Source of the DNA: Proteobacteria bacterium UBA6921
GTDB lineage: Bacteria; Pseudomonadota; Gammaproteobacteria; SG8-11
DNA: 63,634 bases
Direction: 5' to 3'
NCBI GenBank assembly: GCA_002450895.1
Contig: DKAR01000036.1
Span: 236 to 63,869, forward strand
Shown: in pieces, positions 15,773-47,375 of the stretch
Layout: each line of letters begins with the position of its first letter
Numbering within the stretch: the first letter of the stretch is position 1
Notes under the pieces: generated by a model
Seen by the model: only the letters and a program-made list of their open reading frames with translations
What the model was told of the DNA's origin: nothing
The model's database searches: none
Program-made: the position numbers and the translations under genes

Positions 15773-16855
15773 TCAATTTCCGGGCACAATCATCGGTTCA
15801 AAATCGAACACATTGGGATTGGTCGGGTCTACCGTCACTTTGATCCAGTGAATGTTCGGGCTGCCGAACGTTTCCACGCGCGTGAAATTTTTCACGAGGT
15901 GGGCTTGGTCAACGAGCGGCTTGTCAACCTTGAAGAAGTGCGTATCGCCGTGCACCAGCACGACCTGGCCTGAATATGAATTGGTCTCTTCAACGATCGC
16001 GTTGAGAAAATCCGTATAACCGTTGACGGCCGCGTCTGCACGCTCGTTGATATCTTCGGTTTCTGGCAGATCAAACCAGGGATCACCCTGAATCACGACC
16101 ATGACGCCTTTGGCTTTTTTGGCCTTCGCCATTTCAAACGCGTCATGCAGCCAGATCAGGTTGTGCGCGTTGCGATCAGCGTACTCGGCGTTGTCTGCAT
16201 CACAGTCCGCCTGGGTGCGCGCGCTCTTTGAACTGGCGCAGGCGCCGTCGTTCACCTTGTTGTTATTGCTGCCCGGGACGTTCATGCCAACGAAGACAAT
16301 GCCTTTGTACATCCAGCGGGTGTTTTCACTGAACGGCCTGCCCGGTTCACCCTGGCGATTCAGCACCATCTTTTTCTGGCCGAAGCTGGTTGCGGAATTA
16401 AACATGTTCTGGCGCAGGAAGGTGAGACGTTCCAACGCATTGTATCCACCGTTGTTGGTGCGATGGCAGTCGGTCCACTCGTTGTCTCCGGGGACATAGA
16501 CCAGCGGCGCACGCAGCGAATTGAACATATCGGCGGCCTTGGTGCTGATGGTTTCATCGTCACACACGGAGCTGCCATCCTTCGTGTCGCCGTCATAGAT
16601 ACTGAAGGCAATACGAGCGGCATTGATGTCTGCAATCAGTGCAGGAATCTTCGGTTGGTCGCCGCTTTTGGCATAGGGCATGTCGCCCCACAGGCCGAAC
16701 GAGAACCGACCGCGGTCACCGTCGTCCGAATGCTCATCCATCTCGTGAGCCGACGCGTAGGCGCTGCAAAGCAATGTGCCGGAAAAAATCAAAGCTGATG
16801 TCAAACGAACCGCTCTTTGACGGGTAGTCATTTCCTTTCCCCCTGGTTTTTGCAA
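15773..16855 (-). CDS. Secreted calcineurin-like metallophosphoesterase
   Basis: Signal peptide LIFSGTLLCSAYASA. Metallophosphoesterase motifs are GDMPY, YDGDTKDG, VPGDNEW and VLVHGDTH. A near-consensus Pho box lies upstream. Confidence 0.7.
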   Translation of the reverse strand: MQKPGGKEMTTRQRAVRLTSALIFSGTLLCSAYASAHEMDEHSDDGDRGRFSFGLWGDMPYAKSGDQPKIPALIADINAARIAFSIYDGDTKDGSSVCDDETISTKAADMFNSLRAPLVYVPGDNEWTDCHRTNNGGYNALERLTFLRQNMFNSATSFGQKKMVLNRQGEPGRPFSENTRWMYKGIVFVGMNVPGSNNNKVNDGACASSKSARTQADCDADNAEYADRNAHNLIWLHDAFEMAKAKKAKGVMVVIQGDPWFDLPETEDINERADAAVNGYTDFLNAIVEETNSYSGQVVLVHGDTHFFKVDKPLVDQAHLVKNFTRVETFGSPNIHWIKVTVDPTNPNVFDFEPMIVPGN

Positions 16856-16910
16856 TGGAAGGTTGCTGGTTGCGACGGAGGGTTATTTTTCTTCGCCGCT
16901 GAAGAATCTT

Positions 16911-16939
16911 GTTACTGAAACGTGACAGAACGATGACAG
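16911..16939 (-). promoter_or_regulatory. Pho box of the metallophosphoesterase promoter
   Basis: The minus strand reads CTGTCAT-CGTT-CTGTCAC-GTTT-CAGTAAC. The first 18 nt match the E. coli consensus CTGTCAT-N4-CTGTCAY exactly in both heptamers. The array ends about 55 nt upstream of ATG 16855. Confidence 0.8.
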
Positions 16940-36959: not shown

Positions 36960-36999
36960 GTGTCACATCGCTGTCTCTTCTGTTTCATGAATCCGTCAT
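36960..36999 (+). promoter_or_regulatory. Two tandem Pho boxes upstream of the PhoX-like gene
   Basis: GTGTCAC-ATCG-CTGTCTC-TTCT-GTTTCAT-GAAT-CCGTCAT, four heptamers at exact 11-bp spacing. The array ends about 100 nt upstream of ATG 37101. Confidence 0.65.
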
Positions 37000-37100
37000 C
37001 GCCACGTACTAGCTTCGCACTGCTCGAATGATTGAGCAGAAAGAAGACGGAAACAACTTTGGGAAATCATCCCTAACACAACATAACCAGGAGATTTCAA

Positions 37101-38501
37101 ATGTTCCGACAGACGATCATAACCGCAGCCGCTGCCGTCGCAATGATTCCCGCGGCAGCCTGTGCAACGACCGGCCCAAGCAGCTCGCAAACACCTTACC
37201 TCACGCCGTCTGCAGCGGGTGTTGAATTCACTTCGATCCTGACCGTTGGCGATACCGTGAAGAAGAAAAACAAGGGCAGTGAAACGTATCGCATGGTCGG
37301 CATCCCCGATGGGCTGGGAGCCTATGATAACGGCGATGGCACAATCACCGTTTTGATGAATCAGGAACTCGGCAGCTCACTTGGTGCGGTTCGTGCGCAT
37401 GGTTCGAAGGGTGCTTTTGTCTCGCAATGGACGGTTCGCAAGAGCGACCTCGCCGTTCTCAAAGGCAAAGACCTGATGGAGAACGTTGTCCTCACTTCCG
37501 GTGGCTCGACGGCGTTCAACCGCTTCTGTTCCGCGGATCTCGCCGCAACGACGGCCTACTTCAACAGCACCAGCGGCAAAGGCTTCAACGAAGGCCGTAT
37601 CTTCCTGAACGGTGAAGAAACCTCCGGCGGCCGCGCCATGGCGCACATGGCATCAGGTCGCGATCAGGGCACCAGCTATGAGTTGGCGGCGCTGGGCACC
37701 GCGGCGTGGGAAAACCTGGTGGCCAGCCCGTTCGAACAGGACAAGACCGTCGTCGCGGGAATGGATGACGGTTCGATCGGCGCCAGCAAGGTTTACATCT
37801 ACGTCGGGCAAAAGCAGGAAGAAGGCAGCCCGATCGAAATGGCCGGCCTGACCAATGGGACGAGCTTCCAGGTGCTCGTGCAAGGTGCGGCGACTGAAGC
37901 TTCGATTGGTAATGACTTCTCCGGCGCGTTCTCGCTGGTCACCACCGGCGGCACCGGCCTGAACCGCGTGGAAGACGGCGCATGGGATACTGTGAATCCG
38001 AACCGCTTCTACTTCGTGACCACCGACAGCTTCAACGGTAACACCCGGCTGTGGCGCATGACGTTCAGCGACATCACCAACCCGACCGCGGGCGGCATGA
38101 TTGAGGTGCTCGTCAACGGTGTGGTGGACGGACAGAAGATGATGGACAACATCACCGTGGATGCGGCCGGCAACGTCTACATGCAGGAAGACGTCGGCAA
38201 CAACGTTCGTCTGGGCAAGATCTGGAAGTACGACACCACCGGCGCGCTGACGGAACTTGCCGAGCATGACGCCAACCGCTTTATCAACGGCGCCCCCGGA
38301 GACATCGACGGCAGCGCAACCAAGGCGGAAGACGAAGAGTCCTCCGGCATCATCGAAGTTACGAGCATGTTCGAAGGCGTCGACGGCTATGACACCGCGA
38401 ACAACCGCTACTTCCTGCTCGACGTCCAGGCGCACTACGCGACCGGCGACGCCGAAACGGTGGAAGGCGGCCAGTTCCTGATGATGAAGGCGCCCAAGTA
38501 G
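37101..38501 (+). CDS. Secreted beta-propeller protein, PhoX/DUF839-like putative phosphatase (tentative)
   Basis: Signal peptide MFRQTIITAAAAVAMIPAAACA. YRMVGIPDGLGAYDNGDGTITVLMNQELG...GAVRAHGSKGAFVSQWTV resembles the N-terminal signature I associate with DUF839/PhoX proteins. The Pho boxes upstream support a phosphate-scavenging role. Confidence 0.45.
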   Translation: MFRQTIITAAAAVAMIPAAACATTGPSSSQTPYLTPSAAGVEFTSILTVGDTVKKKNKGSETYRMVGIPDGLGAYDNGDGTITVLMNQELGSSLGAVRAHGSKGAFVSQWTVRKSDLAVLKGKDLMENVVLTSGGSTAFNRFCSADLAATTAYFNSTSGKGFNEGRIFLNGEETSGGRAMAHMASGRDQGTSYELAALGTAAWENLVASPFEQDKTVVAGMDDGSIGASKVYIYVGQKQEEGSPIEMAGLTNGTSFQVLVQGAATEASIGNDFSGAFSLVTTGGTGLNRVEDGAWDTVNPNRFYFVTTDSFNGNTRLWRMTFSDITNPTAGGMIEVLVNGVVDGQKMMDNITVDAAGNVYMQEDVGNNVRLGKIWKYDTTGALTELAEHDANRFINGAPGDIDGSATKAEDEESSGIIEVTSMFEGVDGYDTANNRYFLLDVQAHYATGDAETVEGGQFLMMKAPK

Positions 38502-38660: not shown

Positions 38661-39029
38661 CTAGCCACCACGAGAACTACGCAGGCGCTTGGCAAGCGAT
38701 CGCATCACCTGCAGCGAGAACATCGGTGTGTTTTGGGACAAATAGACAAACCGTTTTTCGTCAACCGGAAGGACTCGGCAGGCCGTCTTTGCAACGGCGC
38801 TTGCTGTACGCGGGCTGTTTTCAATCAATCCCACTTCTCCGAGAAACGAACCGGGACCTATCGTGTCAATTGTTGTCCCGTTATGAACAATATCAACCTC
38901 GCCTTGTTGCACGATGTACATCAAACCGCCGGCGGCGTCGCCTTGGGAAAAGATCGTTATGCCGGCAGCAACGTCGGTTCCGCCCTCGGCATGTGCGAAA
39001 ATCATCGTGGTCATATATGAGTTGTCCAA
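38661..39029 (-). CDS. Stand-alone cyclic-nucleotide-binding (CAP effector) domain protein
   Basis: 122 aa containing IFSQGDAAGGLMYIVQQGEVDI and the phosphate-binding-cassette-like GSFLGEVGLIENSPRTASAVAKT. No DNA-binding or other output domain is present. Confidence 0.75.
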   Translation of the reverse strand: MDNSYMTTMIFAHAEGGTDVAAGITIFSQGDAAGGLMYIVQQGEVDIVHNGTTIDTIGPGSFLGEVGLIENSPRTASAVAKTACRVLPVDEKRFVYLSQNTPMFSLQVMRSLAKRLRSSRGG

Positions 39030-39321
39030 TCGGCGTCGGGCCTGTTGTTCAAGCGGTTCACTATCACGCGTTCAAAACAGGCGAATTCAAAACTTCACCG
39101 TTCCCATGAGCAGGGTGCGGTGAAAACCTCAGTCATTGTTTTGCAGTTTTGTTACAGCCTTATTAAGGGCGGTCTCGGAATTGCTCCGCTGCGGCTTGAT
39201 GCAGCAGATTCCATGATTACAGACGGTTCCTGAAGAACAGTTATTTCCAGGCCACCGATGTTTGACCCGCGTCGCGCCGGCCGACCAGGCCCGTATCCGA
39301 TCGAGTACTCCATCTCGAGCT

Positions 39322-39361
39322 TGGTCACAATTTGGTCATGTTAGTGTCACCGTCCCGTTAC
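39322..39361 (+). promoter_or_regulatory. Two tandem Pho boxes upstream of the PAP2-GT4 pair
   Basis: TGGTCAC-AATT-TGGTCAT-GTTA-GTGTCAC-CGTC-CCGTTAC, four heptamers at exact 11-bp spacing. After about 10 nt comes GATATTAT. The array ends 54 nt upstream of ATG 39415. Confidence 0.7.
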
Positions 39362-39414
39362 CTTCGCGGCCGATATTATGTTCAATTTTTACGGCCGTCC
39401 CACGGGAGGCGACC

Positions 39415-39948
39415 ATGCGGATTCAAAGTCTGTTTCAGCGCATGGATGTGTATGAGCTGAGAATGTGCGAAGTCCTGAACCGGATCAGTCGTCTGGATTC
39501 AGTACGAAAGTTCTTCGTCGCAATCAGCCGTCTTGGCAACGGAGTGTTCTGGTATGTTTTGATCGCTTTGCTTCCCTTGATGCAGGGGGACGGGGCGATG
39601 ACTGCGTCTGTTCACATGACCGCGGTCGGGTTAGTCGGAGTCGCGATTTACAAATTTCTGAAGTCACGTTTGGTGCGCGAGCGGCCGTACATCAATCGAT
39701 CGACAATTTCCCTCGGCACCGCGCCGCTCGATGTTTATAGCTTTCCCTCGGGGCACACGTTGCACGCGGTTTCGTTTTCCGTCGTCGCTTTGTCGTATTT
39801 CCCGCATCTGTCGCTGCTGTTGATTCCATTTACTGCCTTGGTCGCGATGTCGCGAGTGGTTCTTGGGCTTCACTATCCCACCGATGTTGTCGCCGGCGCC
39901 GTGATCGGTTTATCCCTGGCCTACTCGAGTTTTCTGTTTGTCGGATGA
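39415..39948 (+). CDS. PAP2-family (type 2 phosphatidic acid phosphatase superfamily) membrane phosphatase
   Basis: ATG 39415 is preceded by GGGAGG. All three PAP2 motifs are present: KSRLVRERP, FPSGHT and SRVVLGLHYPTDV. The track ORF start at 39262 is over-extended. Confidence 0.85.
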   Translation: MRIQSLFQRMDVYELRMCEVLNRISRLDSVRKFFVAISRLGNGVFWYVLIALLPLMQGDGAMTASVHMTAVGLVGVAIYKFLKSRLVRERPYINRSTISLGTAPLDVYSFPSGHTLHAVSFSVVALSYFPHLSLLLIPFTALVAMSRVVLGLHYPTDVVAGAVIGLSLAYSSFLFVG

Positions 39949-39985
39949 TCCATTGAAGTCCGAAGAAAAAGACAAGCGCAGGACA

Positions 39986-41170
39986 ATGCGAATACTTTTC
40001 ATTTCAGATGTCTATTTTCCTCGGGTGAATGGCGTGTCGACGTCGATCAAGACGTTCATGGCGGCGCTGGAGCGTCTGGGTCACGAAGTATTTCTGATCG
40101 CGCCGGACTATGGAAACAATGGTCCGGATGATGCGCGCATCATGCGCATTCCGGCACGGGTTGTGCCCTTTGACCCGGAAGATCGATTCATGTCCAGCGC
40201 CGAAATCGGAAAGCGATTCGACGCGCTAAAGTCACACGGGTTTGATTTGGTGCATATCCATACACCGTTCGTCGCGCATTATTCAGGCCTTTCAATTGCG
40301 CGCGCGCTGGATATTCCGGTATTCGAAACGTATCACACGTTTTTCGAAGAGTATCTCTACCACTACGTGCCGTTCGTCCCGAAAACATGGATGCGCGCCC
40401 TGGCGCGTCGTTTCAGCCGATCGCAGTGCATGGCGGTGGATGCCGTTGTCGTTCCATCACGACCGATGCTGGATGTGTTGTTCAAGTATGGCATCCGCGC
40501 GCATATGGAAATTATTCCCACCGGACTCGAGCTGGACCGTTTCAAAGGCGGTGATGGTGCACGTTTTCGTGCAAAGCACGGAATTTCGCAAGATCGGCCG
40601 GTACTTTTGCATGTGGGTCGTGTTGCTCATGAAAAAAACATCGAGTTTCTAATGCAGGTCGTTTCACGGATACGTTCATCGGTGCGGAACATTATGTTTG
40701 TAATTGCTGGCGAAGGCCCCGCGCTTCCCAGCCTGCGTGCGATGGCGAGCGATCTGGCCCTCGACTCTAATGTGATGTTCATTGGATACATGGATCGTGA
40801 ATCTGAACTTCTGGACTGCTATTGCGCGGCGGACCTCAAGATCTTTGCGTCACGTACAGAGACTCAGGGGCTGGTACTTCTTGAAGCTATGGCGCTGGGT
40901 GTTCCGGTCGTGTCGACAGCGATAATGGGTACGCAGGATGTATTGGCTCCGGGTTGTGGCGCCGCCATCGTCAGTGAGGATGTGCAGTCCTTTGCAGACG
41001 TTGTGACTCGACTCCTGGGCAGCCCGGAAGTGCGGACCCGAATGAGCGAAGAAGGTAAAGACTACGTGCACGAATGGTCGGCCGATGCGATGGCGCAGCG
41101 CCTCTCCGGCGTTTACGCGGACGGCATCAAGTCTTCCATCGCCGCCTCGGTCGGTGTGCTTCGGTCGTGA
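39986..41170 (+). CDS. Family-4 (GT-B) glycosyltransferase
   Basis: N-terminus MRILFISDVYFPRVNGVSTSI and the EX7E region ETQGLVLLEAMALGVPVV. It starts 38 nt after the PAP2 stop. The track start at 39938 is a TTG that overlaps the PAP2 gene. Confidence 0.8.
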   Translation: MRILFISDVYFPRVNGVSTSIKTFMAALERLGHEVFLIAPDYGNNGPDDARIMRIPARVVPFDPEDRFMSSAEIGKRFDALKSHGFDLVHIHTPFVAHYSGLSIARALDIPVFETYHTFFEEYLYHYVPFVPKTWMRALARRFSRSQCMAVDAVVVPSRPMLDVLFKYGIRAHMEIIPTGLELDRFKGGDGARFRAKHGISQDRPVLLHVGRVAHEKNIEFLMQVVSRIRSSVRNIMFVIAGEGPALPSLRAMASDLALDSNVMFIGYMDRESELLDCYCAADLKIFASRTETQGLVLLEAMALGVPVVSTAIMGTQDVLAPGCGAAIVSEDVQSFADVVTRLLGSPEVRTRMSEEGKDYVHEWSADAMAQRLSGVYADGIKSSIAASVGVLRS

Positions 41171-41242
41171 GAAGAATCATCTCGGCACTAAGGCCGTTTC
41201 AAACGCCTGTGACCGGGTTGTCGAAGATAGAAACCGTGAACG

Positions 41243-41282
41243 TTGTCATCTAAACGCCATGCAGCTGTCATTATTGCGACAC
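41243..41282 (+). promoter_or_regulatory. Candidate Pho boxes upstream of the first PilZ gene
   Basis: TTGTCAT-CTAA-ACGCCAT-GCAG-CTGTCAT-TATT-GCGACAC. The two strong heptamers are 22 bp apart, in register with two weaker ones. An AT-rich candidate -10 (CACTATTTAT) follows. Confidence 0.45.
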
Positions 41283-41334
41283 GCTCACTATTTATTGTGG
41301 TCGCAGAACGGCAATCGACGAGGAGCTCCTGACG

Positions 41335-41667
41335 ATGGAACACCGCTACAACAAGCGATTCAATGTCGAGTTTAGCGTCCTGGTGGTTGTGCGCGACAAG
41401 GGTGTTCGTATCGGCACGGCCCGCAACCTGTCTCTCGAGGGCATGTTCGTCTCTCTTCCGGATTGGTCTTTGGCGCTCGGGACAATGCTCACGTTGAAGC
41501 TGCGCGTGAATGGTGTGCTGGAAACGATGCGGGCGATGGTCGTGCATAGCGGTGATGGAGGTGTTGGCGTTTTTTTTCGCGACATGGAGCCGATGCGGCG
41601 TGCCGGATGGCATCGGGTTCCTGCGCTGCTCGACGAGGACGGCACGTACTGGATGGATGTCGGTTGA
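41335..41667 (+). CDS. Single-domain PilZ (c-di-GMP-binding) protein
   Basis: RxxxR (RYNKR) at the N-terminus and D/NxSxxG (NLSLEG) about 25 residues later. 110 aa. Confidence 0.7.
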   Translation: MEHRYNKRFNVEFSVLVVVRDKGVRIGTARNLSLEGMFVSLPDWSLALGTMLTLKLRVNGVLETMRAMVVHSGDGGVGVFFRDMEPMRRAGWHRVPALLDEDGTYWMDVG

Positions 41668-41719
41668 CTCCGGGAACAACAAAACGGTTTTGCATTAATC
41701 AACTCACGAGAAAGACTCT

Positions 41720-42106
41720 ATGGATACTTACGAATTCCTGACTGCGACCGATCGAGCCTTAATTCAGGCAACTCAGCCCCTGCGACGCTCCAACCGTCGG
41801 GCTTGCGAACGCCTCAATACGGATCTGTACGTTGCTTTGCGACTGTCCGGCAAATTGATTGTTCAAGGTCGAGTAAGCAATATTTCCCGGCACGGAATTT
41901 TTGTTGAAGTGCCGGTGGATCTGTTGCCGGAGTCGGGTCAAGTTGAATTACGCTCCTACCAGGGCGACGTCATGTTGTCCGCGTCTGGCGATATCGTGCA
42001 CAAGACAGCCGAAGGTGTCGGGATCAGTCTGCGCGGGCCGATCATGATGTATGAAATGATTGAGGGCGCGCAGTATGCACTCGATCCGGTCGCGATCGCG
42101 GTGTAA
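41720..42106 (+). CDS. Single-domain PilZ (c-di-GMP-binding) protein
   Basis: RRSNRR followed by NISRHG. 128 aa. Confidence 0.7.
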   Translation: MDTYEFLTATDRALIQATQPLRRSNRRACERLNTDLYVALRLSGKLIVQGRVSNISRHGIFVEVPVDLLPESGQVELRSYQGDVMLSASGDIVHKTAEGVGISLRGPIMMYEMIEGAQYALDPVAIAV

Positions 42107-42178
42107 CAACATACCAAGTTTCTCTCCCCCCACGAAGACAAACAGAAGTATCCCCCCCACTGTTCAGATTGAACGCGA

Positions 42179-42206
42179 GGCGCCCCAAAAGGGCGCCTTA
42201 TTTTTT
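42179..42206 (+). terminator. Rho-independent terminator of the PilZ pair
   Basis: GGCGCC-ccaaaag-GGCGCC followed by TTATTTTTT. Confidence 0.75.
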
Positions 42207-42458: not shown

Positions 42459-42718
42459 GGCGCGGCTAGTGCCAATACCGTTTATGCGGTGAGGGTGCAG
42501 CGCTCTTCCGCCACTTCACGCTTTTTTCGATCGTTCGCTGTTTCAGTCCAGTTCCTTTAAGAATGTTCCCGGTTTGGGCCACAACTGTGTATGACAGTGT
42601 CATCTCTCCGCCATCTCTTCGAAATGCTTGTTTCATTTCTCTGTCATGCATTGCGGCGAAATTTCGCAACGTAGATTGAGTTTGTTCGCATCACCCATTG
42701 AGCAAAGGCGGAAATACG

Positions 42719-43189
42719 ATGGAACTTAAAAAGCAGAACATTTCGCTACGCATGAACACTTCAGACCTGCGCAAGATCAAGCAGATTGCGCAACGTCTCG
42801 GAGCGCGTGAATCGGATGTCTTTCGGTTCGCGATCAAATCGACACTGGCCAAACTTTCGCCGCTATGCGAACTGCAAGCGCACGGCAGCGACCTGGTTCC
42901 GGTGTTTATGGAGGTGGGACCGGAATTGGCGAAGTACTTCGATCTGGATTCGTCCCGGCTGGATCGGATTATCAATGACGGAGTTCTGGATCCCACAAAA
43001 CGAGTCGACCGCGATGATCTGGAGCTCCTCGCGCTGTCGGGTCTCGAGGCGAACTACATGGTCCTGAAGTTGCGGGAGCGCGGTGCGCGGCCCGCGACGG
43101 CGACCGACGGCCCCGCAACGGTTTTGCGCGAGTACTTACTGCAAAAGTACCTGGCGCGCGCCGTTGCTGCGGAACGCCAGATTGCTTAA
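42719..43189 (+). CDS. Hypothetical protein with an N-terminal ribbon-helix-helix-like segment
   Basis: MELKKQNISLRMNTSDLRKIKQIAQRLGARESDVFRFAIKSTL has a strand-helix-helix pattern typical of CopG/Arc-type regulators. ATG 42719 has an AGGCGGA Shine-Dalgarno-like sequence; the track start at 42698 is a TTG. Confidence 0.45.
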   Translation: MELKKQNISLRMNTSDLRKIKQIAQRLGARESDVFRFAIKSTLAKLSPLCELQAHGSDLVPVFMEVGPELAKYFDLDSSRLDRIINDGVLDPTKRVDRDDLELLALSGLEANYMVLKLRERGARPATATDGPATVLREYLLQKYLARAVAAERQIA

Positions 43190-45617: not shown

Positions 45618-47375
45618 ATGGATCGGAATGAAAACGAAAAAACATTGGCCGACTATCTGGGCGCTCTGAAGCGCTATCGCGGCCGAATGGGAATGGTCAT
45701 CGTTGCAATGATCGTCGCAAGCATCGGCGTGGCCTTCGGACTGCCACCCGTGTATCGCTCCAGCGCGACAATCCTGATCGAGCAGCAGGAAATCCCCACC
45801 GATCTGGTTCGTTCGACCATCACAAGTTTCGCGGATCAGCGCATTCAGGTGATCAGTCAGCGCGTGATGACTCGCGCGAATCTCATGGACATCATCAAGA
45901 AATACAACCTCTATCCCGACGATCAGAAAACGGAACCGACGGAGGTCCTTGTCGAGAATATGCACAAGGACATCAAGATGAATACGATCAGCGCGGACGT
46001 CGTCGATCCGCGCAGCGGACGGCCCACTCAGGCGACCATTGCATTTACGGTGTCGTACGACAGTGAATCGCCTGGATTGGCTCAAAAGGTCGCGAACGAA
46101 CTCGTTTCGCTTTACCTCAATGAGAATCTCAAGAGCCGAACCGAGGCGACGGAACAGACGTCCGATTTTCTGAGCGATGAGGCTCGCAAGCTGAGTGAAC
46201 TGATCACGGACTCGGAAAAAAAGCTGGCTGAATTCAAAACAGCAAACGCTGACGAGTTGCCTGAACTTTCGGGCCTCAACATGCAAGTGCTTGATCGTGC
46301 CGAGCGGGACATGCTCGATGTGGATCGCGACATGCGATCGCTGCGCGAACGCAAGGCCTATCTGGAAGCGCAAATTGCGCAAGTGAGTGAGACCACCAGT
46401 CTGTACGCGAAAACCGGAGAACGGCTTCTCGGTCCGGAGGACCGTTTAAAGCAATTGCAGACAAGCTATGTCAGCCTGCTTTCTAACTACGGTGCGGATC
46501 ACCCGGACGTTGTGCGCGCGCGCAAGGAAATCGACGCACTCAAAAAAGAAGTCGGCGGTGTTGATACGGCAGACAGTCTGCGTGATCGCCGCAAGATTCT
46601 TGAAGATGATCTGGAGGCGGCCCGAAAAAAATACGGCGCTGAACATCCCGACGTAAAGCGACTCCAGCGTGAGCTCTCCGTTCTGGACGACAACATCGCG
46701 CAGGCGACAATTAACAAGAGCGTTGCGAGCACGGAAGAGCCGAACAATCCTGCATTCATTCAACTGCAATCACAAATCAAAAGCGCTGAAATCGAGCTCG
46801 CCGCGTTGTCGGCCAAGAAAGACGCGCTTTCGCAAAAGATGCAGGACTATGAAGGGCGTCTCGCGCGTACGCCGCAGGTCGAGCGGCAGTTCCGGGCGCT
46901 CACGCGTGACTATGAAAATGCGTGGGGAAAGTACAAGGAGCTGAAGGCGAAGCAGATGGAAGCTCAGCTCGCTCAGGTCATGGAAACCGAACGCAAGGGC
47001 GAGCGCTTCACGCTCATTGAGCCACCCGAGTTGCCCGAAAAACCGCTCAAGCCGAACCGCATGGCTGTACTGGTTCTGGGCGTGGTGTTTTCGTTTGCGG
47101 GGGGTGTTGGCACGGTTGCCGTGAGCGAGACAACGGATGCCACAGTGCGCGGGGTCCGTGGAGTATCGCTGCTGTTGAACTCGCCGCCGCTTGCGGCCAT
47201 TCCGCGAATTGATACCGAGGCGGATCGCCAGCGCCGCAGGCGCAGGCGGATCGGATTCGCCGTCGCGATCGTTGCGCTAATTGGCATGGGAGTCGCGGCG
47301 TTTCACTTCTTTTTCATGCCGCTGGATGTGTTTTGGTACGCCGTACAGCGGCGCCTGGGTTTGCAAGTTATCTGA
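45618..47375 (+). CDS. Polysaccharide chain-length determinant (Wzz/PCP family)
   Basis: N-terminal Wzz segment with TM (LADYLGALKRYRGRMGMVIVAMIVASIGVAFGLPPVYRSSATILIE), a long coiled-coil periplasmic region, and a second TM near the C-terminus (IGFAVAIVALIGMGVAAF). Confidence 0.75.
   Translation: MDRNENEKTLADYLGALKRYRGRMGMVIVAMIVASIGVAFGLPPVYRSSATILIEQQEIPTDLVRSTITSFADQRIQVISQRVMTRANLMDIIKKYNLYPDDQKTEPTEVLVENMHKDIKMNTISADVVDPRSGRPTQATIAFTVSYDSESPGLAQKVANELVSLYLNENLKSRTEATEQTSDFLSDEARKLSELITDSEKKLAEFKTANADELPELSGLNMQVLDRAERDMLDVDRDMRSLRERKAYLEAQIAQVSETTSLYAKTGERLLGPEDRLKQLQTSYVSLLSNYGADHPDVVRARKEIDALKKEVGGVDTADSLRDRRKILEDDLEAARKKYGAEHPDVKRLQRELSVLDDNIAQATINKSVASTEEPNNPAFIQLQSQIKSAEIELAALSAKKDALSQKMQDYEGRLARTPQVERQFRALTRDYENAWGKYKELKAKQMEAQLAQVMETERKGERFTLIEPPELPEKPLKPNRMAVLVLGVVFSFAGGVGTVAVSETTDATVRGVRGVSLLLNSPPLAAIPRIDTEADRQRRRRRRIGFAVAIVALIGMGVAAFHFFFMPLDVFWYAVQRRLGLQVI

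What the first reader, a model, noticed from the sequence alone, without database searches (positions are those of the whole stretch)
39322..41170. Pho-box-preceded PAP2 phosphatase plus GT4 glycosyltransferase: candidate phosphate-sparing lipid-remodelling pair
Four heptamers at exact 11-bp spacing (TGGTCAC, TGGTCAT, GTGTCAC, CCGTTAC) precede a membrane PAP2 phosphatase. All three PAP2 catalytic motifs are visible: KSRLVRERP, PSGHT and SRVVLGLHYPTD. A GT4 glycosyltransferase follows 38 nt downstream.

It is established that many bacteria replace phospholipids with glycolipids under phosphorus limitation. They do this with a phosphohydrolase that generates diacylglycerol and a glycosyltransferase that glycosylates it; the PlcP-Agt system of marine heterotrophs and rhizobia is an example.

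A PAP2 enzyme acting on phosphatidate or a related lipid phosphate, coupled to a GT4, would achieve the same end with a different first enzyme. An alternative is dephosphorylation of undecaprenyl pyrophosphate or lipid A.
Basis: partly seen in the sequence, partly recalled or inferred. Interest (0 to 1): 0.65.

Follow-up and report, generated by a model that had tools for sequence, protein, structure and literature searches.

The report
Phosphate-starvation lipid phosphatase plus glycolipid glycosyltransferase operon
A two-gene operon behind a phosphate-starvation promoter pairs a small membrane lipid phosphatase with a lipid sugar-transferase. Comparison with hundreds of genomes shows this phosphatase family is an undescribed regular companion of the known bacterial system that swaps phospholipids for sugar lipids when phosphorus runs out.

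Summary
Four in-phase heptamers lie at 39322-39361. They are followed after exactly 10 bp by GATATT, then a Shine-Dalgarno site, a 177-aa PAP2 phosphatase with all three catalytic motifs, and 37 nt later a 394-aa GT4.

Each heptamer is a weak match to this genome's own Pho box (CTGTMAY-N4-CTGTMAY, learned from phoB, pstS, pstC and ppk). The four-heptamer sum still ranks 8th of 8 million positions. The array is conserved in a second copy of the operon on contig C136. Similar boxes precede related operons in 34 of 64 other genomes (5% expected).

Across an even sample of 200 genomes of the class:
- This PAP2 subfamily sits directly beside an MGS-like GT4 in 24 of 29 carriers.
- It co-occurs with this GT4 clade (odds ratio 63).
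- It is found almost only in genomes that also hold PlcP (25 of 29 carriers, against 26 of 171 non-carriers).

So it is normally a companion of PlcP-Agt, not a replacement. Here no PlcP was found, but the MAG is 89% complete.

Most likely role: PhoB-induced dephosphorylation of phosphatidate to diacylglycerol, which the GT4 then glycosylates. Substrates are inferred, not shown. I class it as a new variant of a known system.

The parts
39322..39361 (+). Four in-phase Pho-box heptamers (TGGTCAC, TGGTCAT, GTGTCAC, CCGTTAC), equal to two PhoB-dimer sites
   Evidence: Read. Heptamer scores are 3.15, 3.12, 6.38 and 3.32; the four-heptamer sum ranks 8th of 8.06 M positions. The array is conserved in C136.
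39372..39377 (+). -10-like hexamer GATATT, 10 bp after the last heptamer (alternative TATTAT at 39374-39379)
   Evidence: Same box-to-hexamer geometry as the phoB, pstC and exbB promoters of this window. Identical in C136. No -35 match is expected at a PhoB-dependent promoter, and the sigma-70 scan finds none.
39404..39409 (+). Shine-Dalgarno site GGGAGG, 5 nt before the ATG
39415..39948 (+). PAP2 lipid phosphatase, 177 aa, LpxE-like fold with an N-terminal amphipathic helix and five transmembrane helices
   Evidence: The AF2 model has pLDDT 90.6. The best structural match is Aquifex LpxE 6EBU, TM 0.78/0.83.
39986..41170 (+). GT4 glycosyltransferase, 394 aa, clade A (MGS/Agt-like), EX7E at aa 292-300
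39140..39157 (-). Strong divergent Pho box CTGTAAC-aaaa-CTGCAAA facing the cNMP-binding gene (38661-39014, minus strand)
   Evidence: Matrix score 16.8, about 15th in the genome. The ORF matches PF00027 at 2e-18.
41243..41282 (+). Second four-heptamer Pho array downstream of the GT4, ahead of two PilZ genes. No terminator lies between the GT4 and these genes.
   Evidence: The only strong terminator is at 42177-42199.

Best explanation
This is a PhoB-activated two-gene operon for making phosphorus-free membrane glycolipid.

Proposed mechanism, step by step:
1. Under phosphate starvation, phosphorylated PhoB (encoded in the same window) binds as two dimers to the four heptamers. These take the place of a -35 element, and PhoB recruits RNA polymerase to the GATATT -10.
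2. The small LpxE-like PAP2 membrane phosphatase removes the phosphate from phosphatidate, or a closely related glycerolipid monoester. This yields diacylglycerol and frees Pi.
3. The MGS/Agt-like GT4, a peripheral cytoplasmic enzyme, transfers a sugar from a UDP-sugar to that diacylglycerol. The product is a monoglycosyl-diacylglycerol (sugar unknown: glucose or glucuronate) that replaces phospholipid.

Across Gamma- and Betaproteobacteria the same PAP2 subfamily is a regular third member of the PlcP-Agt lipid-renovation gene set. PlcP recycles existing phospholipids to diacylglycerol. The PAP2 would divert newly made phosphatidate to the same pool.

What is shown: the sequence features, the gene pairing, the co-occurrence with PlcP and GT4, and the enrichment of Pho-box-like sites.
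What is inferred: PhoB control in vivo, the lipid substrates, the sugar, and the membrane orientation.
For: Regulation:
- phoBR and pstSCA lie in the same window, and the local Pho-box consensus was derived from them.
- The candidate array ranks 8th genome-wide as a four-heptamer unit. The other top arrays precede a phytase-like gene, a secreted phosphoesterase-like gene and neighbouring window genes; two-heptamer boxes also precede ppk and pstC.
- The spacing to the -10 hexamer is the same 10 bp as at phoB and pstC.
- The second operon copy on C136 shows a phylogenetic footprint.
- Pho-box-like pairs lie 40-135 bp upstream of the operon start in 34 of 64 related loci, against 5% expected, p=2e-27.

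Pairing:
- PAP2 is directly adjacent to an MGS-like GT4 in 24 of 29 carrier genomes from an even sample of 200.
- PAP2 and GT4 clade A co-occur with odds ratio 63, p=4e-15.

Lipid context:
- Recurrent neighbours are a PlcP-like LpxH-type metallophosphoesterase, a short Agt-like GT4, OlsB, DgkA, Zn-phospholipase C and PhoB/PhoR.
- Locus L019 reads GT4(B)-PlcP-PAP2-GT4(A)-OlsB.
- plcP is followed directly by GT4 clade A in G195, G031 and G019.
- PAP2 is nearly confined to PlcP-positive genomes, p=7e-14.
- The GT4's best curated family is alpha-monoglucosyl-diacylglycerol synthase, 157 bits over its full length.

PAP2 itself:
- The catalytic triad of motifs is intact.
- Over 120 homologues the active-site side carries 13.6 K+R and the opposite side 0.5. 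By the positive-inside rule the active site would face the cytoplasm, where phosphatidate is made and the GT4 works.

Literature:
- Diacylglycerol for these lipids must come from a phospholipase C or from phosphatidate dephosphorylation (PMC4796936).
- Agt enzymes make MGDG and GADG from diacylglycerol (PMC8528852).
Against: - No enzyme assay, lipid data or expression data exist. No RNA runs hold this sequence.
- Each heptamer is a weak match (5-6 of 7). Pairwise box scores are unexceptional, and chance gives about one such four-heptamer array per genome.
- By sequence and fold, the PAP2's nearest named relatives are a lipid A 1-phosphatase (Aquifex LpxE, itself trifunctional) and C55-PP phosphatases (SepP, BcrC-type). 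None is a dedicated phosphatidate phosphatase.
- All curated family scores are far below cut-off, for both proteins.
- PlcP already supplies diacylglycerol in most carrier genomes, so the need for a second source is an argument, not an observation.
- About a third of the closest PAP2 loci have no GT4 nearby.
- In Xanthomonadaceae the pair is followed by lpxH, a lipid A gene.
- The orientation inference is weakened because the arginine-rich N-terminal helix of LpxE lies on the periplasmic face (PMC6581854).
Confidence: 0.55

Rival explanations
1. The PAP2 is an envelope phosphatase of the LpxE/BcrC type that strips phosphate from lipid A or undecaprenyl pyrophosphate. This could salvage phosphorus or make a phosphate-free lipid A. 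The GT4 would then glycosylate lipid A-core or an undecaprenyl-linked intermediate rather than diacylglycerol.
For: - The best structural and sequence match is Aquifex LpxE.
- The best NCBIfam hit is the Und-PP phosphatase SepP, and source names call homologues 'undecaprenyl-diphosphatase'.
- GT4 enzymes such as WaaG and TuaC do act on LPS core and undecaprenyl-linked acceptors, and both appear among weaker hits.
- lpxH follows the pair in Xanthomonadaceae.
- An EPS locus lies 3 kb downstream in this window.
Against: - Scores to the LpxE, BcrC and SepP models are far below their cut-offs (21-58 bits against 177-250).
- The conserved neighbours are glycerolipid enzymes (PlcP, DgkA, Zn-PLC, OlsB), not lipid A or O-antigen genes.
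- The GT4 scores best against diacylglycerol and phosphatidylglycerol glycosyltransferases. It also replaces Agt downstream of plcP in three genomes.
- EPS genes are not conserved next to the pair.
- A periplasmic lipid A phosphatase could not hand its product to a cytoplasmic Leloir GT4.
Confidence: 0.2
2. The two enzymes work in the order sugar-transfer then dephosphorylation, as in trehalose-, sucrose- or glucosylglycerol-phosphate pathways. The GT4 would glycosylate a phosphorylated lipid head group such as phosphatidylglycerol phosphate. The PAP2, acting as a PGP-phosphatase-like enzyme, would then remove the terminal phosphate, giving a glycosylated phospholipid.
For: - Close structural relatives of the PAP2 (LpxE, YodM, PgpB) are PGP phosphatases (PMC6581854).
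- The second-best curated family for the GT4, and the best for the clade B GT4 that most often precedes this PAP2, is GpgS, which glycosylates phosphatidylglycerol (PMC12713373).
Against: - Such a product still contains phosphorus, which fits poorly with Pho control and with co-occurrence with PlcP, OlsB and DgkA.
- No deacetylase or flippase like GpgD/GpgF is conserved nearby.
- Scores to the GpgS model are far below cut-off (121 against 480).
Confidence: 0.08
3. The heptamer array is a chance or vestigial resemblance, and the operon is not under PhoB control. The pair would be a constitutive or otherwise regulated membrane-lipid module.
For: - Every heptamer departs from the consensus.
- Pairwise box scores are matched at hundreds of genome positions.
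- Simulation gives about 1.2 equally good four-heptamer arrays per genome.
- About half of the related loci show no convincing box.
Against: - The spacing to the -10 hexamer is correct, and the orientation and distance to the start codon fit.
- Conservation in C136 begins exactly at heptamer 1.
- Five of the six best arrays in the genome lie in this one Pho-gene-rich contig.
- Related loci are enriched tenfold.
Confidence: 0.1

Closest known systems
PlcP-Agt lipid renovation system (Phaeobacter MED193, SAR11 HTCC7211, Agrobacterium Atu2297, P. aeruginosa PA3219/PA3218/PA0842)
   Same: - Pho-box-controlled operon.
- A GT4 lipid glycosyltransferase follows an enzyme that would generate diacylglycerol.
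- The purpose is the same: replacing phospholipids when phosphate is scarce.
- Orthologues of this GT4 sit directly downstream of plcP in three sampled genomes, and the PAP2 lies inside PlcP-GT4 clusters in at least eight.
   Different: - The upstream enzyme here is an integral-membrane PAP2 phosphomonoesterase, not the LpxH-like metallophosphoesterase PlcP (a phospholipase C).
- No PlcP was found in this MAG.
- The GT4 belongs to a clade (A) separate from the short PlcP-adjacent clade C.
- No paper in the searched library links a PAP2 to this system.
Aquifex aeolicus LpxE (PDB 6EBU), a trifunctional lipid A 1-phosphatase, C55-PP phosphatase and PGP phosphatase
   Same: Same size and architecture: an N-terminal amphipathic helix plus five transmembrane helices and the tripartite PAP2 motif. 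TM-score 0.78/0.83, rmsd 2.1 A, profile E=4e-13.
   Different: - 26% identity.
- The LpxE NCBIfam model scores 21 bits against a cut-off of 177.
- The loops opposite the active site carry almost no K/R in this family (0.5 on average) but at least six in the LpxE sequence as aligned (my count). This predicts the opposite membrane orientation.
- The gene context is glycerolipid, not lipid A.
Acholeplasma-type alpha-monoglucosyl-diacylglycerol synthase (NCBIfam NF049988, Mgs)
   Same: Full-length alignment (1-382 against 1-389 of 398). It is the best-scoring curated family, a GT4 with the EX7E motif.
   Different: 157 bits against a cut-off of 400, so this GT4 is not an equivalog. The organism is a proteobacterium. 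The sugar and the acceptor are untested.
PAP2-type phosphatidate phosphatases that feed diacylglycerol to lipid synthesis (cyanobacterial and plastid LPPs; Streptomyces and Mycobacterium PAPs for triacylglycerol)
   Same: The proposed chemistry and logic are the same: phosphatidate is converted to diacylglycerol by a PAP2 enzyme to supply a non-phospholipid end product (PMC4796936; PMC8225852, listed).
   Different: Homology to those enzymes beyond the superfamily motifs was not tested here. Those are not known to be Pho-box-controlled or paired with a GT4.

Membership tests
PAP2 superfamily (Pfam PF01569) | Tripartite motif KX6RP / PSGH / SRX5HX3D | tested here: met
   K83-P91, P111-H114 and S146-D157. 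All are invariant in 24 homologues.
PAP2 superfamily (Pfam PF01569) | Score above the Pfam gathering threshold, and the PAP2 fold | tested here: met
   70.2 bits against 27.2. The AF2 model (pLDDT 90.6) matches LpxE, YodM, PgpB and G6PC1.
LpxE lipid A 1-phosphatase | Score above the NCBIfam NF007159 cut-off | tested here: not met
   21.2 bits against 177.
LpxE lipid A 1-phosphatase | Active site on the periplasmic face | tested here: inconclusive
   The charge distribution (13.6 K+R on the active-site side, 0.5 on the other) predicts a cytoplasmic face. However, the homologous N-terminal helix of LpxE is periplasmic.
Undecaprenyl-diphosphatase (SepP / BcrC-YbjG type) | Score above the NCBIfam cut-offs | tested here: not met
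   SepP 57.8 against 250; PRK11837 29.2 against 229.
Glycosyltransferase family 4 (GT-B, retaining) | Glyco_transf_4 N-domain plus Glycos_transf_1 C-domain, and the EX7E motif | tested here: met
   PF13439 at 1.3e-31 and PF00534 at 3e-36. E292-x7-E300.
alpha-Monoglucosyl-diacylglycerol synthase Mgs (NF049988) | Score above the equivalog cut-off | tested here: not met
   157 bits against 400. It is nevertheless the best family and aligns over the full length.
PlcP-Agt lipid renovation system | Pho box upstream of the operon | tested here: met
   A degenerate four-heptamer array with the correct -10 spacing, conserved in C136 and enriched in related loci.
PlcP-Agt lipid renovation system | PlcP (LpxH-like metallophosphoesterase) present and adjacent | tested here: not met
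   tblastn found no PlcP in this 89%-complete MAG. It is present in 25 of 29 other PAP2 carriers.
PlcP-Agt lipid renovation system | The GT4 is of the kind that partners PlcP | tested here: met
   Clade A orthologues lie 32-92 bp downstream of plcP on the same strand in G195, G031 and G019.
PlcP-Agt lipid renovation system | Glycosyl-diacylglycerol accumulates under phosphate limitation and depends on these genes | not testable with these tools
   This needs lipidomics of cultures or heterologous expression.
Pho regulon | PhoB/PhoR present, and PhoB-dependent induction | tested here: inconclusive
   PhoB (359 bits, over cut-off) and PhoR are in the window. Induction cannot be tested, as no RNA runs exist.

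The most novel reading that the evidence does not exclude
This LpxE-like PAP2 subfamily would be a cytoplasm-facing bacterial phosphatidate phosphatase. It would be the missing enzyme that diverts newly made phosphatidate to diacylglycerol during phosphate starvation. It would form a general third component of the PlcP-Agt lipid-renovation pathway in roughly 15% of gamma- and betaproteobacterial families, including Xanthomonas, Stenotrophomonas, Lysobacter, Methylotenera, Thiothrix and Nitrosococcus. It would have the opposite membrane orientation to all characterised bacterial PAP2 lipid phosphatases.
Probability: 0.3. Interest if true: 0.72.

Novelty: new variant of a known kind. Interest (0 to 1): 0.58.

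Why it matters
Replacing phospholipids with glycolipids is a major way for bacteria to cut their phosphorus quota. In Pseudomonas and Burkholderia it also changes resistance to polymyxin and survival in host cells.

The accepted pathway has two parts: PlcP makes diacylglycerol from old phospholipid, and Agt adds the sugar. It says nothing about how newly synthesised phosphatidate is kept out of phospholipid during growth on low phosphate.

A conserved PAP2 phosphatase with Pho-box-like sites upstream in about half of related loci, beside the glycosyltransferase in 83% of sampled carriers and almost confined to PlcP-positive genomes, is an obvious candidate for that step. It is present in easily grown model bacteria, so the idea can be tested directly. 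If its active site faces the cytoplasm, it would also be an unusual topology for a bacterial PAP2 enzyme.

Tried and rejected
- Part of the downstream PEP-CTERM-type EPS locus (45618-47375 and onward): rejected. EPS genes are not conserved next to the pair in 80 related loci, and two PilZ genes with their own Pho array and a terminator lie in between.
- Longer PAP2 ORF from TTG 39262: rejected. It would run through the heptamers; homologues are about 177 aa; and an SD precedes ATG 39415.
- GT4 start at TTG 39938: rejected in favour of ATG 39986, which gives the usual GT4 N-terminus shared by homologues.
- PAP2 as a substitute for PlcP in general: rejected by co-occurrence.
- P. aeruginosa Agt2 (PA0842) lying next to this PAP2: could not be established. 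The 'Pseudomonas sp.' loci turned out to be Xanthomonadaceae ([Pseudomonas] boreopolis, Xanthomonas, Stenotrophomonas), and papers on PA0842 mention no PAP2.
- Expression evidence: only four DNA metagenome runs hold the sequence, and no RNA runs do.
- Sigma-70 promoter scan: no hit at this promoter. This is expected for a PhoB-dependent promoter lacking a -35 element, so it is uninformative.
- Pfam found nothing for the 466-aa and 360-aa Pho-boxed secreted proteins in the window.
Full report
**1. What is in the sequence**

Reading 39000-41400 shows TGGTCAC (39322-39328), TGGTCAT (39333-39339), GTGTCAC (39344-39350) and CCGTTAC (39355-39361) at exact 11-bp spacing. A 10-bp spacer follows, then GATATT (39372-39377), a Shine-Dalgarno site GGGAGG (39404-39409) and an ATG at 39415.

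The ORF 39415-39948 encodes a 177-aa protein. It matches Pfam PAP2 at E=1.8e-19. It carries KSRLVRERP (aa 83-91), PSGH (111-114) and SRVVLGLHYPTD (146-157). Every catalytic residue is invariant in 24 homologues.

After a 37-nt gap, ATG 39986 opens a 394-aa GT4. It has both GT4 domains and the EX7E motif at 292-300. No terminator-like site lies between the two genes or just after the GT4. The next strong one is at 42177-42199, after two PilZ genes.

**2. Is the heptamer array a Pho box?**

The window itself encodes PhoB (359 bits, over the equivalog cut-off), PhoR, PstS, PstC and PstA on the minus strand. The promoters of phoB, pstS and pstC show the local consensus: CTGTMAY-N4-CTGTMAY, then 10 bp, then a -10 hexamer.

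A genome-wide scan for near-perfect boxes found only 23. They lie before ppk, a phytase-like protein, a secreted phosphoesterase-like protein, an ExbB-type motor and the pst/pho genes.

I built a matrix from seven such sites, excluding the candidate.
- The candidate's three overlapping 18-mers score 8.4, 11.9 and 9.2. Between 183 and 1819 genome positions score as well, so these values are ordinary.
- Scored as a unit of four in-phase heptamers, the array reaches 15.97 and ranks 8th of 8.06 million positions.
- The eight best positions fall at six loci, all upstream of ORFs. Five of them are in this contig.
- First-order Markov simulations gave 3 such arrays in 10 Mb scored on both strands, which scales to about 1.2 per genome. 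The score alone is therefore suggestive, not decisive.

Three further observations make chance unlikely.
- The last heptamer is followed after exactly 10 bp by a -10-like hexamer, as at phoB, pstC and exbB.
- The MAG holds a second copy of the operon on the 3.6-kb contig C136 (PAP2 80%, GT4 78% identical). In the alignment of the two upstream regions, similarity is at background level until the first heptamer. From there it is high. Three of 28 heptamer positions differ, against five of 12 positions in the 4-bp spacers, and GATATT is identical.
- In 64 related loci from other genomes, the best Pho-box-like pair in the 300 bp before the operon's first gene exceeds the 95th percentile of background windows in 34 cases (p=2e-27). 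It usually lies 40-135 bp before the start codon.

I conclude that the array is very probably a real, low-affinity double Pho box. I put this at about 0.85.

**3. The surroundings**

The 900-bp region upstream also holds a much stronger Pho box on the other strand (39140-39157; score 16.8, about 15th in the genome). It faces a stand-alone cNMP-binding protein (38661-39014; PF00027).

Further four-heptamer arrays precede:
- the 466-aa secreted protein at 37101-38501;
- the PilZ pair at 41335-42106;
- the ORF at 42698.

The finding therefore sits inside a Pho-regulon island. Earlier notes of this scan say the same. I had reached this independently.

**4. Is the pair conserved?**

Both proteins have thousands of homologues, mainly in Gammaproteobacteria, and several share contigs.

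In the 80 loci closest to the PAP2, a tblastn census and a tree resolve three well-separated GT4 clades (100/100 support).
- Clade A is the window's type, about 395 aa. It is directly downstream of PAP2 in 19 loci, directly upstream in 3, and within 3.6 kb in about 10.
- Clade B is 25-32% identical to the window's GT4 and about 400-430 aa. It is directly upstream of PAP2 in about 18 loci.
- Clade C is about 340 aa and lies next to a PlcP-like gene.

About 27 loci, mostly Steroidobacteraceae and Wenzhouxiangellaceae, have no GT4 nearby.

To avoid the bias of that set, I searched an even sample of 200 genomes of the class.
- The PAP2 subfamily is present in 29 genomes, and clade A in 24.
- Both are present in 19 (odds ratio 63, p=4e-15).
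- In 24 of the 29 carriers the PAP2 is directly adjacent, on the same strand, to an MGS-like GT4. In two more a GT4 lies within about 1.2 kb.

**5. What the neighbours say**

I clustered all ORFs of the 80 loci and annotated representatives. The recurrent neighbours are:
- an LpxH-like metallophosphoesterase of about 271 aa, which is the PlcP type;
- an OlsB-like ornithine-lipid acyltransferase;
- diacylglycerol kinase DgkA;
- a Zn-dependent phospholipase C family protein;
- PhoB/PhoR;
- an alpha/beta hydrolase.

One locus (L019) reads GT4(B)-PlcP-PAP2-GT4(A)-OlsB.

In the even sample:
- PlcP is present in 25 of 29 PAP2 carriers, against 26 of 171 non-carriers (p=7e-14).
- PlcP, a GT4 and PAP2 lie within 3 kb of each other in at least eight genomes.
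- In G195, G031 and G019 a clade A GT4 lies 32-92 bp downstream of plcP on the same strand. This is the arrangement described for plcP-agt (PMC4796936).

So the GT4 is of a kind that partners PlcP, and the PAP2 is a regular third member of that gene set. It is not, in general, a substitute for PlcP.

In this MAG, tblastn finds no PlcP or Zn-PLC homologue. The assembly is 89% complete, so their absence is not proven.

**6. The proteins**

The GT4's best curated family is alpha-monoglucosyl-diacylglycerol synthase (157 bits, full length). Next is the phosphatidylglycerol GlcNAc-transferase GpgS (121 bits). Both are far below their equivalog cut-offs. Among solved structures only generic GT4 relatives appear.

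The PAP2's best curated hits are SepP, PgpB, the YbjG type and LpxE, again all far below cut-off. A profile search of the PDB and a fold search with a confident AF2 model (pLDDT 90.6) both point to Aquifex LpxE (E=4e-13; TM 0.78/0.83, rmsd 2.1 A). That enzyme is itself trifunctional on lipid A 1-phosphate, C55-PP and PGP, with a periplasmic active site (PMC6581854).

Similarity therefore does not fix the substrate.

One feature separates the family from LpxE. Over 120 homologues, the loops on the active-site side carry on average 13.6 Lys+Arg and the opposite side 0.5. LpxE, as aligned, has at least six on the opposite side by my count. By the positive-inside rule this family's active site would face the cytoplasm, where phosphatidate is made and where a Leloir GT4 works.

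This is inference. The homologous N-terminal helix of LpxE is periplasmic, so the rule may mislead here.

**7. Mechanism proposed**

PhoB~P binds the four heptamers as two dimers and activates transcription from GATATT. The PAP2 converts phosphatidate, or a close relative, to diacylglycerol plus Pi. The GT4 glycosylates diacylglycerol to give a phosphorus-free membrane lipid.

Where PlcP is present, it recycles existing phospholipid while the PAP2 diverts de novo phosphatidate. Both routes are named in the literature as the only ways to make diacylglycerol for these lipids. The marine model strains were noted to lack a phosphatidate phosphatase (PMC4796936).

- Shown: sequence features, pairing, co-occurrence and box enrichment.
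- Inferred: regulation in vivo, the substrates, the sugar and the membrane orientation.

**8. Rivals**

- (a) A lipid A or C55-PP phosphatase paired with a GT4 acting on another acceptor. Nearest relatives favour this, as does lpxH following the pair in Xanthomonadaceae. The glycerolipid neighbours, the GT4's affinities and the compartment problem count against it.
- (b) Glycosylation of a phosphorylated head group followed by dephosphorylation. This is possible chemically, but the product would not spare phosphorus.
- (c) The box is not functional.
- (d) The pair belongs to the EPS locus. I rejected this.

**9. Novelty**

PlcP-Agt is established (PMC4796936, PMC8528852). Seven full-text searches found no paper linking a PAP2 enzyme to it. 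The only paper holding both 'PlcP' and a phosphatidate-phosphatase term is PMC4796936, which reports the absence of such an enzyme in its strains.

The clade B-PAP2 pair is present in Xanthomonas campestris, X. arboricola, Stenotrophomonas and Lysobacter. The clade A pair is present in Methylotenera, and clade A lies a few genes from the PAP2 in Methylobacillus and Thiothrix. Experiments are therefore straightforward.

I class this as a new variant of a known kind.

Noticed in passing
window 38661-39157 (- strand): A strong Pho box (CTGTAAC-aaaa-CTGCAAA, 39140-39157; score 16.8, about 15th in the genome) faces a 117-aa stand-alone cNMP-binding domain protein. That gene is transcribed divergently from the PAP2-GT4 operon.
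   Followed up: partly
window 41243-42199 (+): A four-heptamer Pho array (TTGTCAT/ACGCCAT/CTGTCAT/GCGACAC) precedes two single-domain PilZ genes. No terminator separates them from the GT4, so read-through from the PAP2-GT4 promoter is possible. A strong terminator lies at 42177-42199.
   Followed up: partly
window 36960-38501 (+): A four-heptamer Pho array (score 20.9, third best in the genome) lies upstream of a 466-aa secreted protein with no Pfam or NCBIfam hit.
   Followed up: no
window 15773-16939 (-): A perfect Pho box (CTGTCAT-cgtt-CTGTCAC-gttt-CAGTAAC) lies upstream of a 360-aa secreted protein. By eye it shows metallophosphoesterase-like motifs (GDxxY, DGDT, GDNEW, HGDTH), but it has no Pfam hit at E<=0.01.
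   Followed up: no
G000 contig C136 (locus L086, 1-3593): A second PAP2-GT4 copy (80% and 78% aa identity) with the same promoter architecture but different upstream genes and higher GC (59.2% against 56.7%). It is either a true paralogue or a related strain binned into the MAG.
   Followed up: partly
whole contig C183: Five of the six best four-heptamer Pho arrays of the 4-Mb genome lie in this one 121-kb contig, together with phoBR and pstSCA. This is an unusually dense Pho-regulon island.
   Followed up: partly
L087 (G000 C234:15000-22260): pstB and phoU lie at a contig end, probably continuing the window's pstSCA. They are followed by a Pho-like array, a thioredoxin-fold gene, dusA and an OlsB-like acyltransferase.
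   Followed up: no
L051 1163-5313 and relatives (Xanthomonadaceae): A conserved order ppx, GT4 (clade B), PAP2, lpxH on one strand in [Pseudomonas] boreopolis. Close homologues of this GT4 (77-92% identical) occur in Xanthomonas and Stenotrophomonas. The record's label 'Pseudomonas sp.' is misleading.
   Followed up: partly
Methylophilaceae loci L041, L050, L056, L073, L074, L076: In these betaproteobacteria a Zn-dependent phospholipase C family gene (PF00882) lies on the opposite strand between the PAP2 and the clade A GT4. In L050 and L073 a DgkA gene lies there as well.
   Followed up: no
window 42608-42647 (+): A further four-heptamer Pho-like array (score 17.6) lies upstream of a 163-aa ORF (42698-43189) with no family hit.
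   Followed up: no
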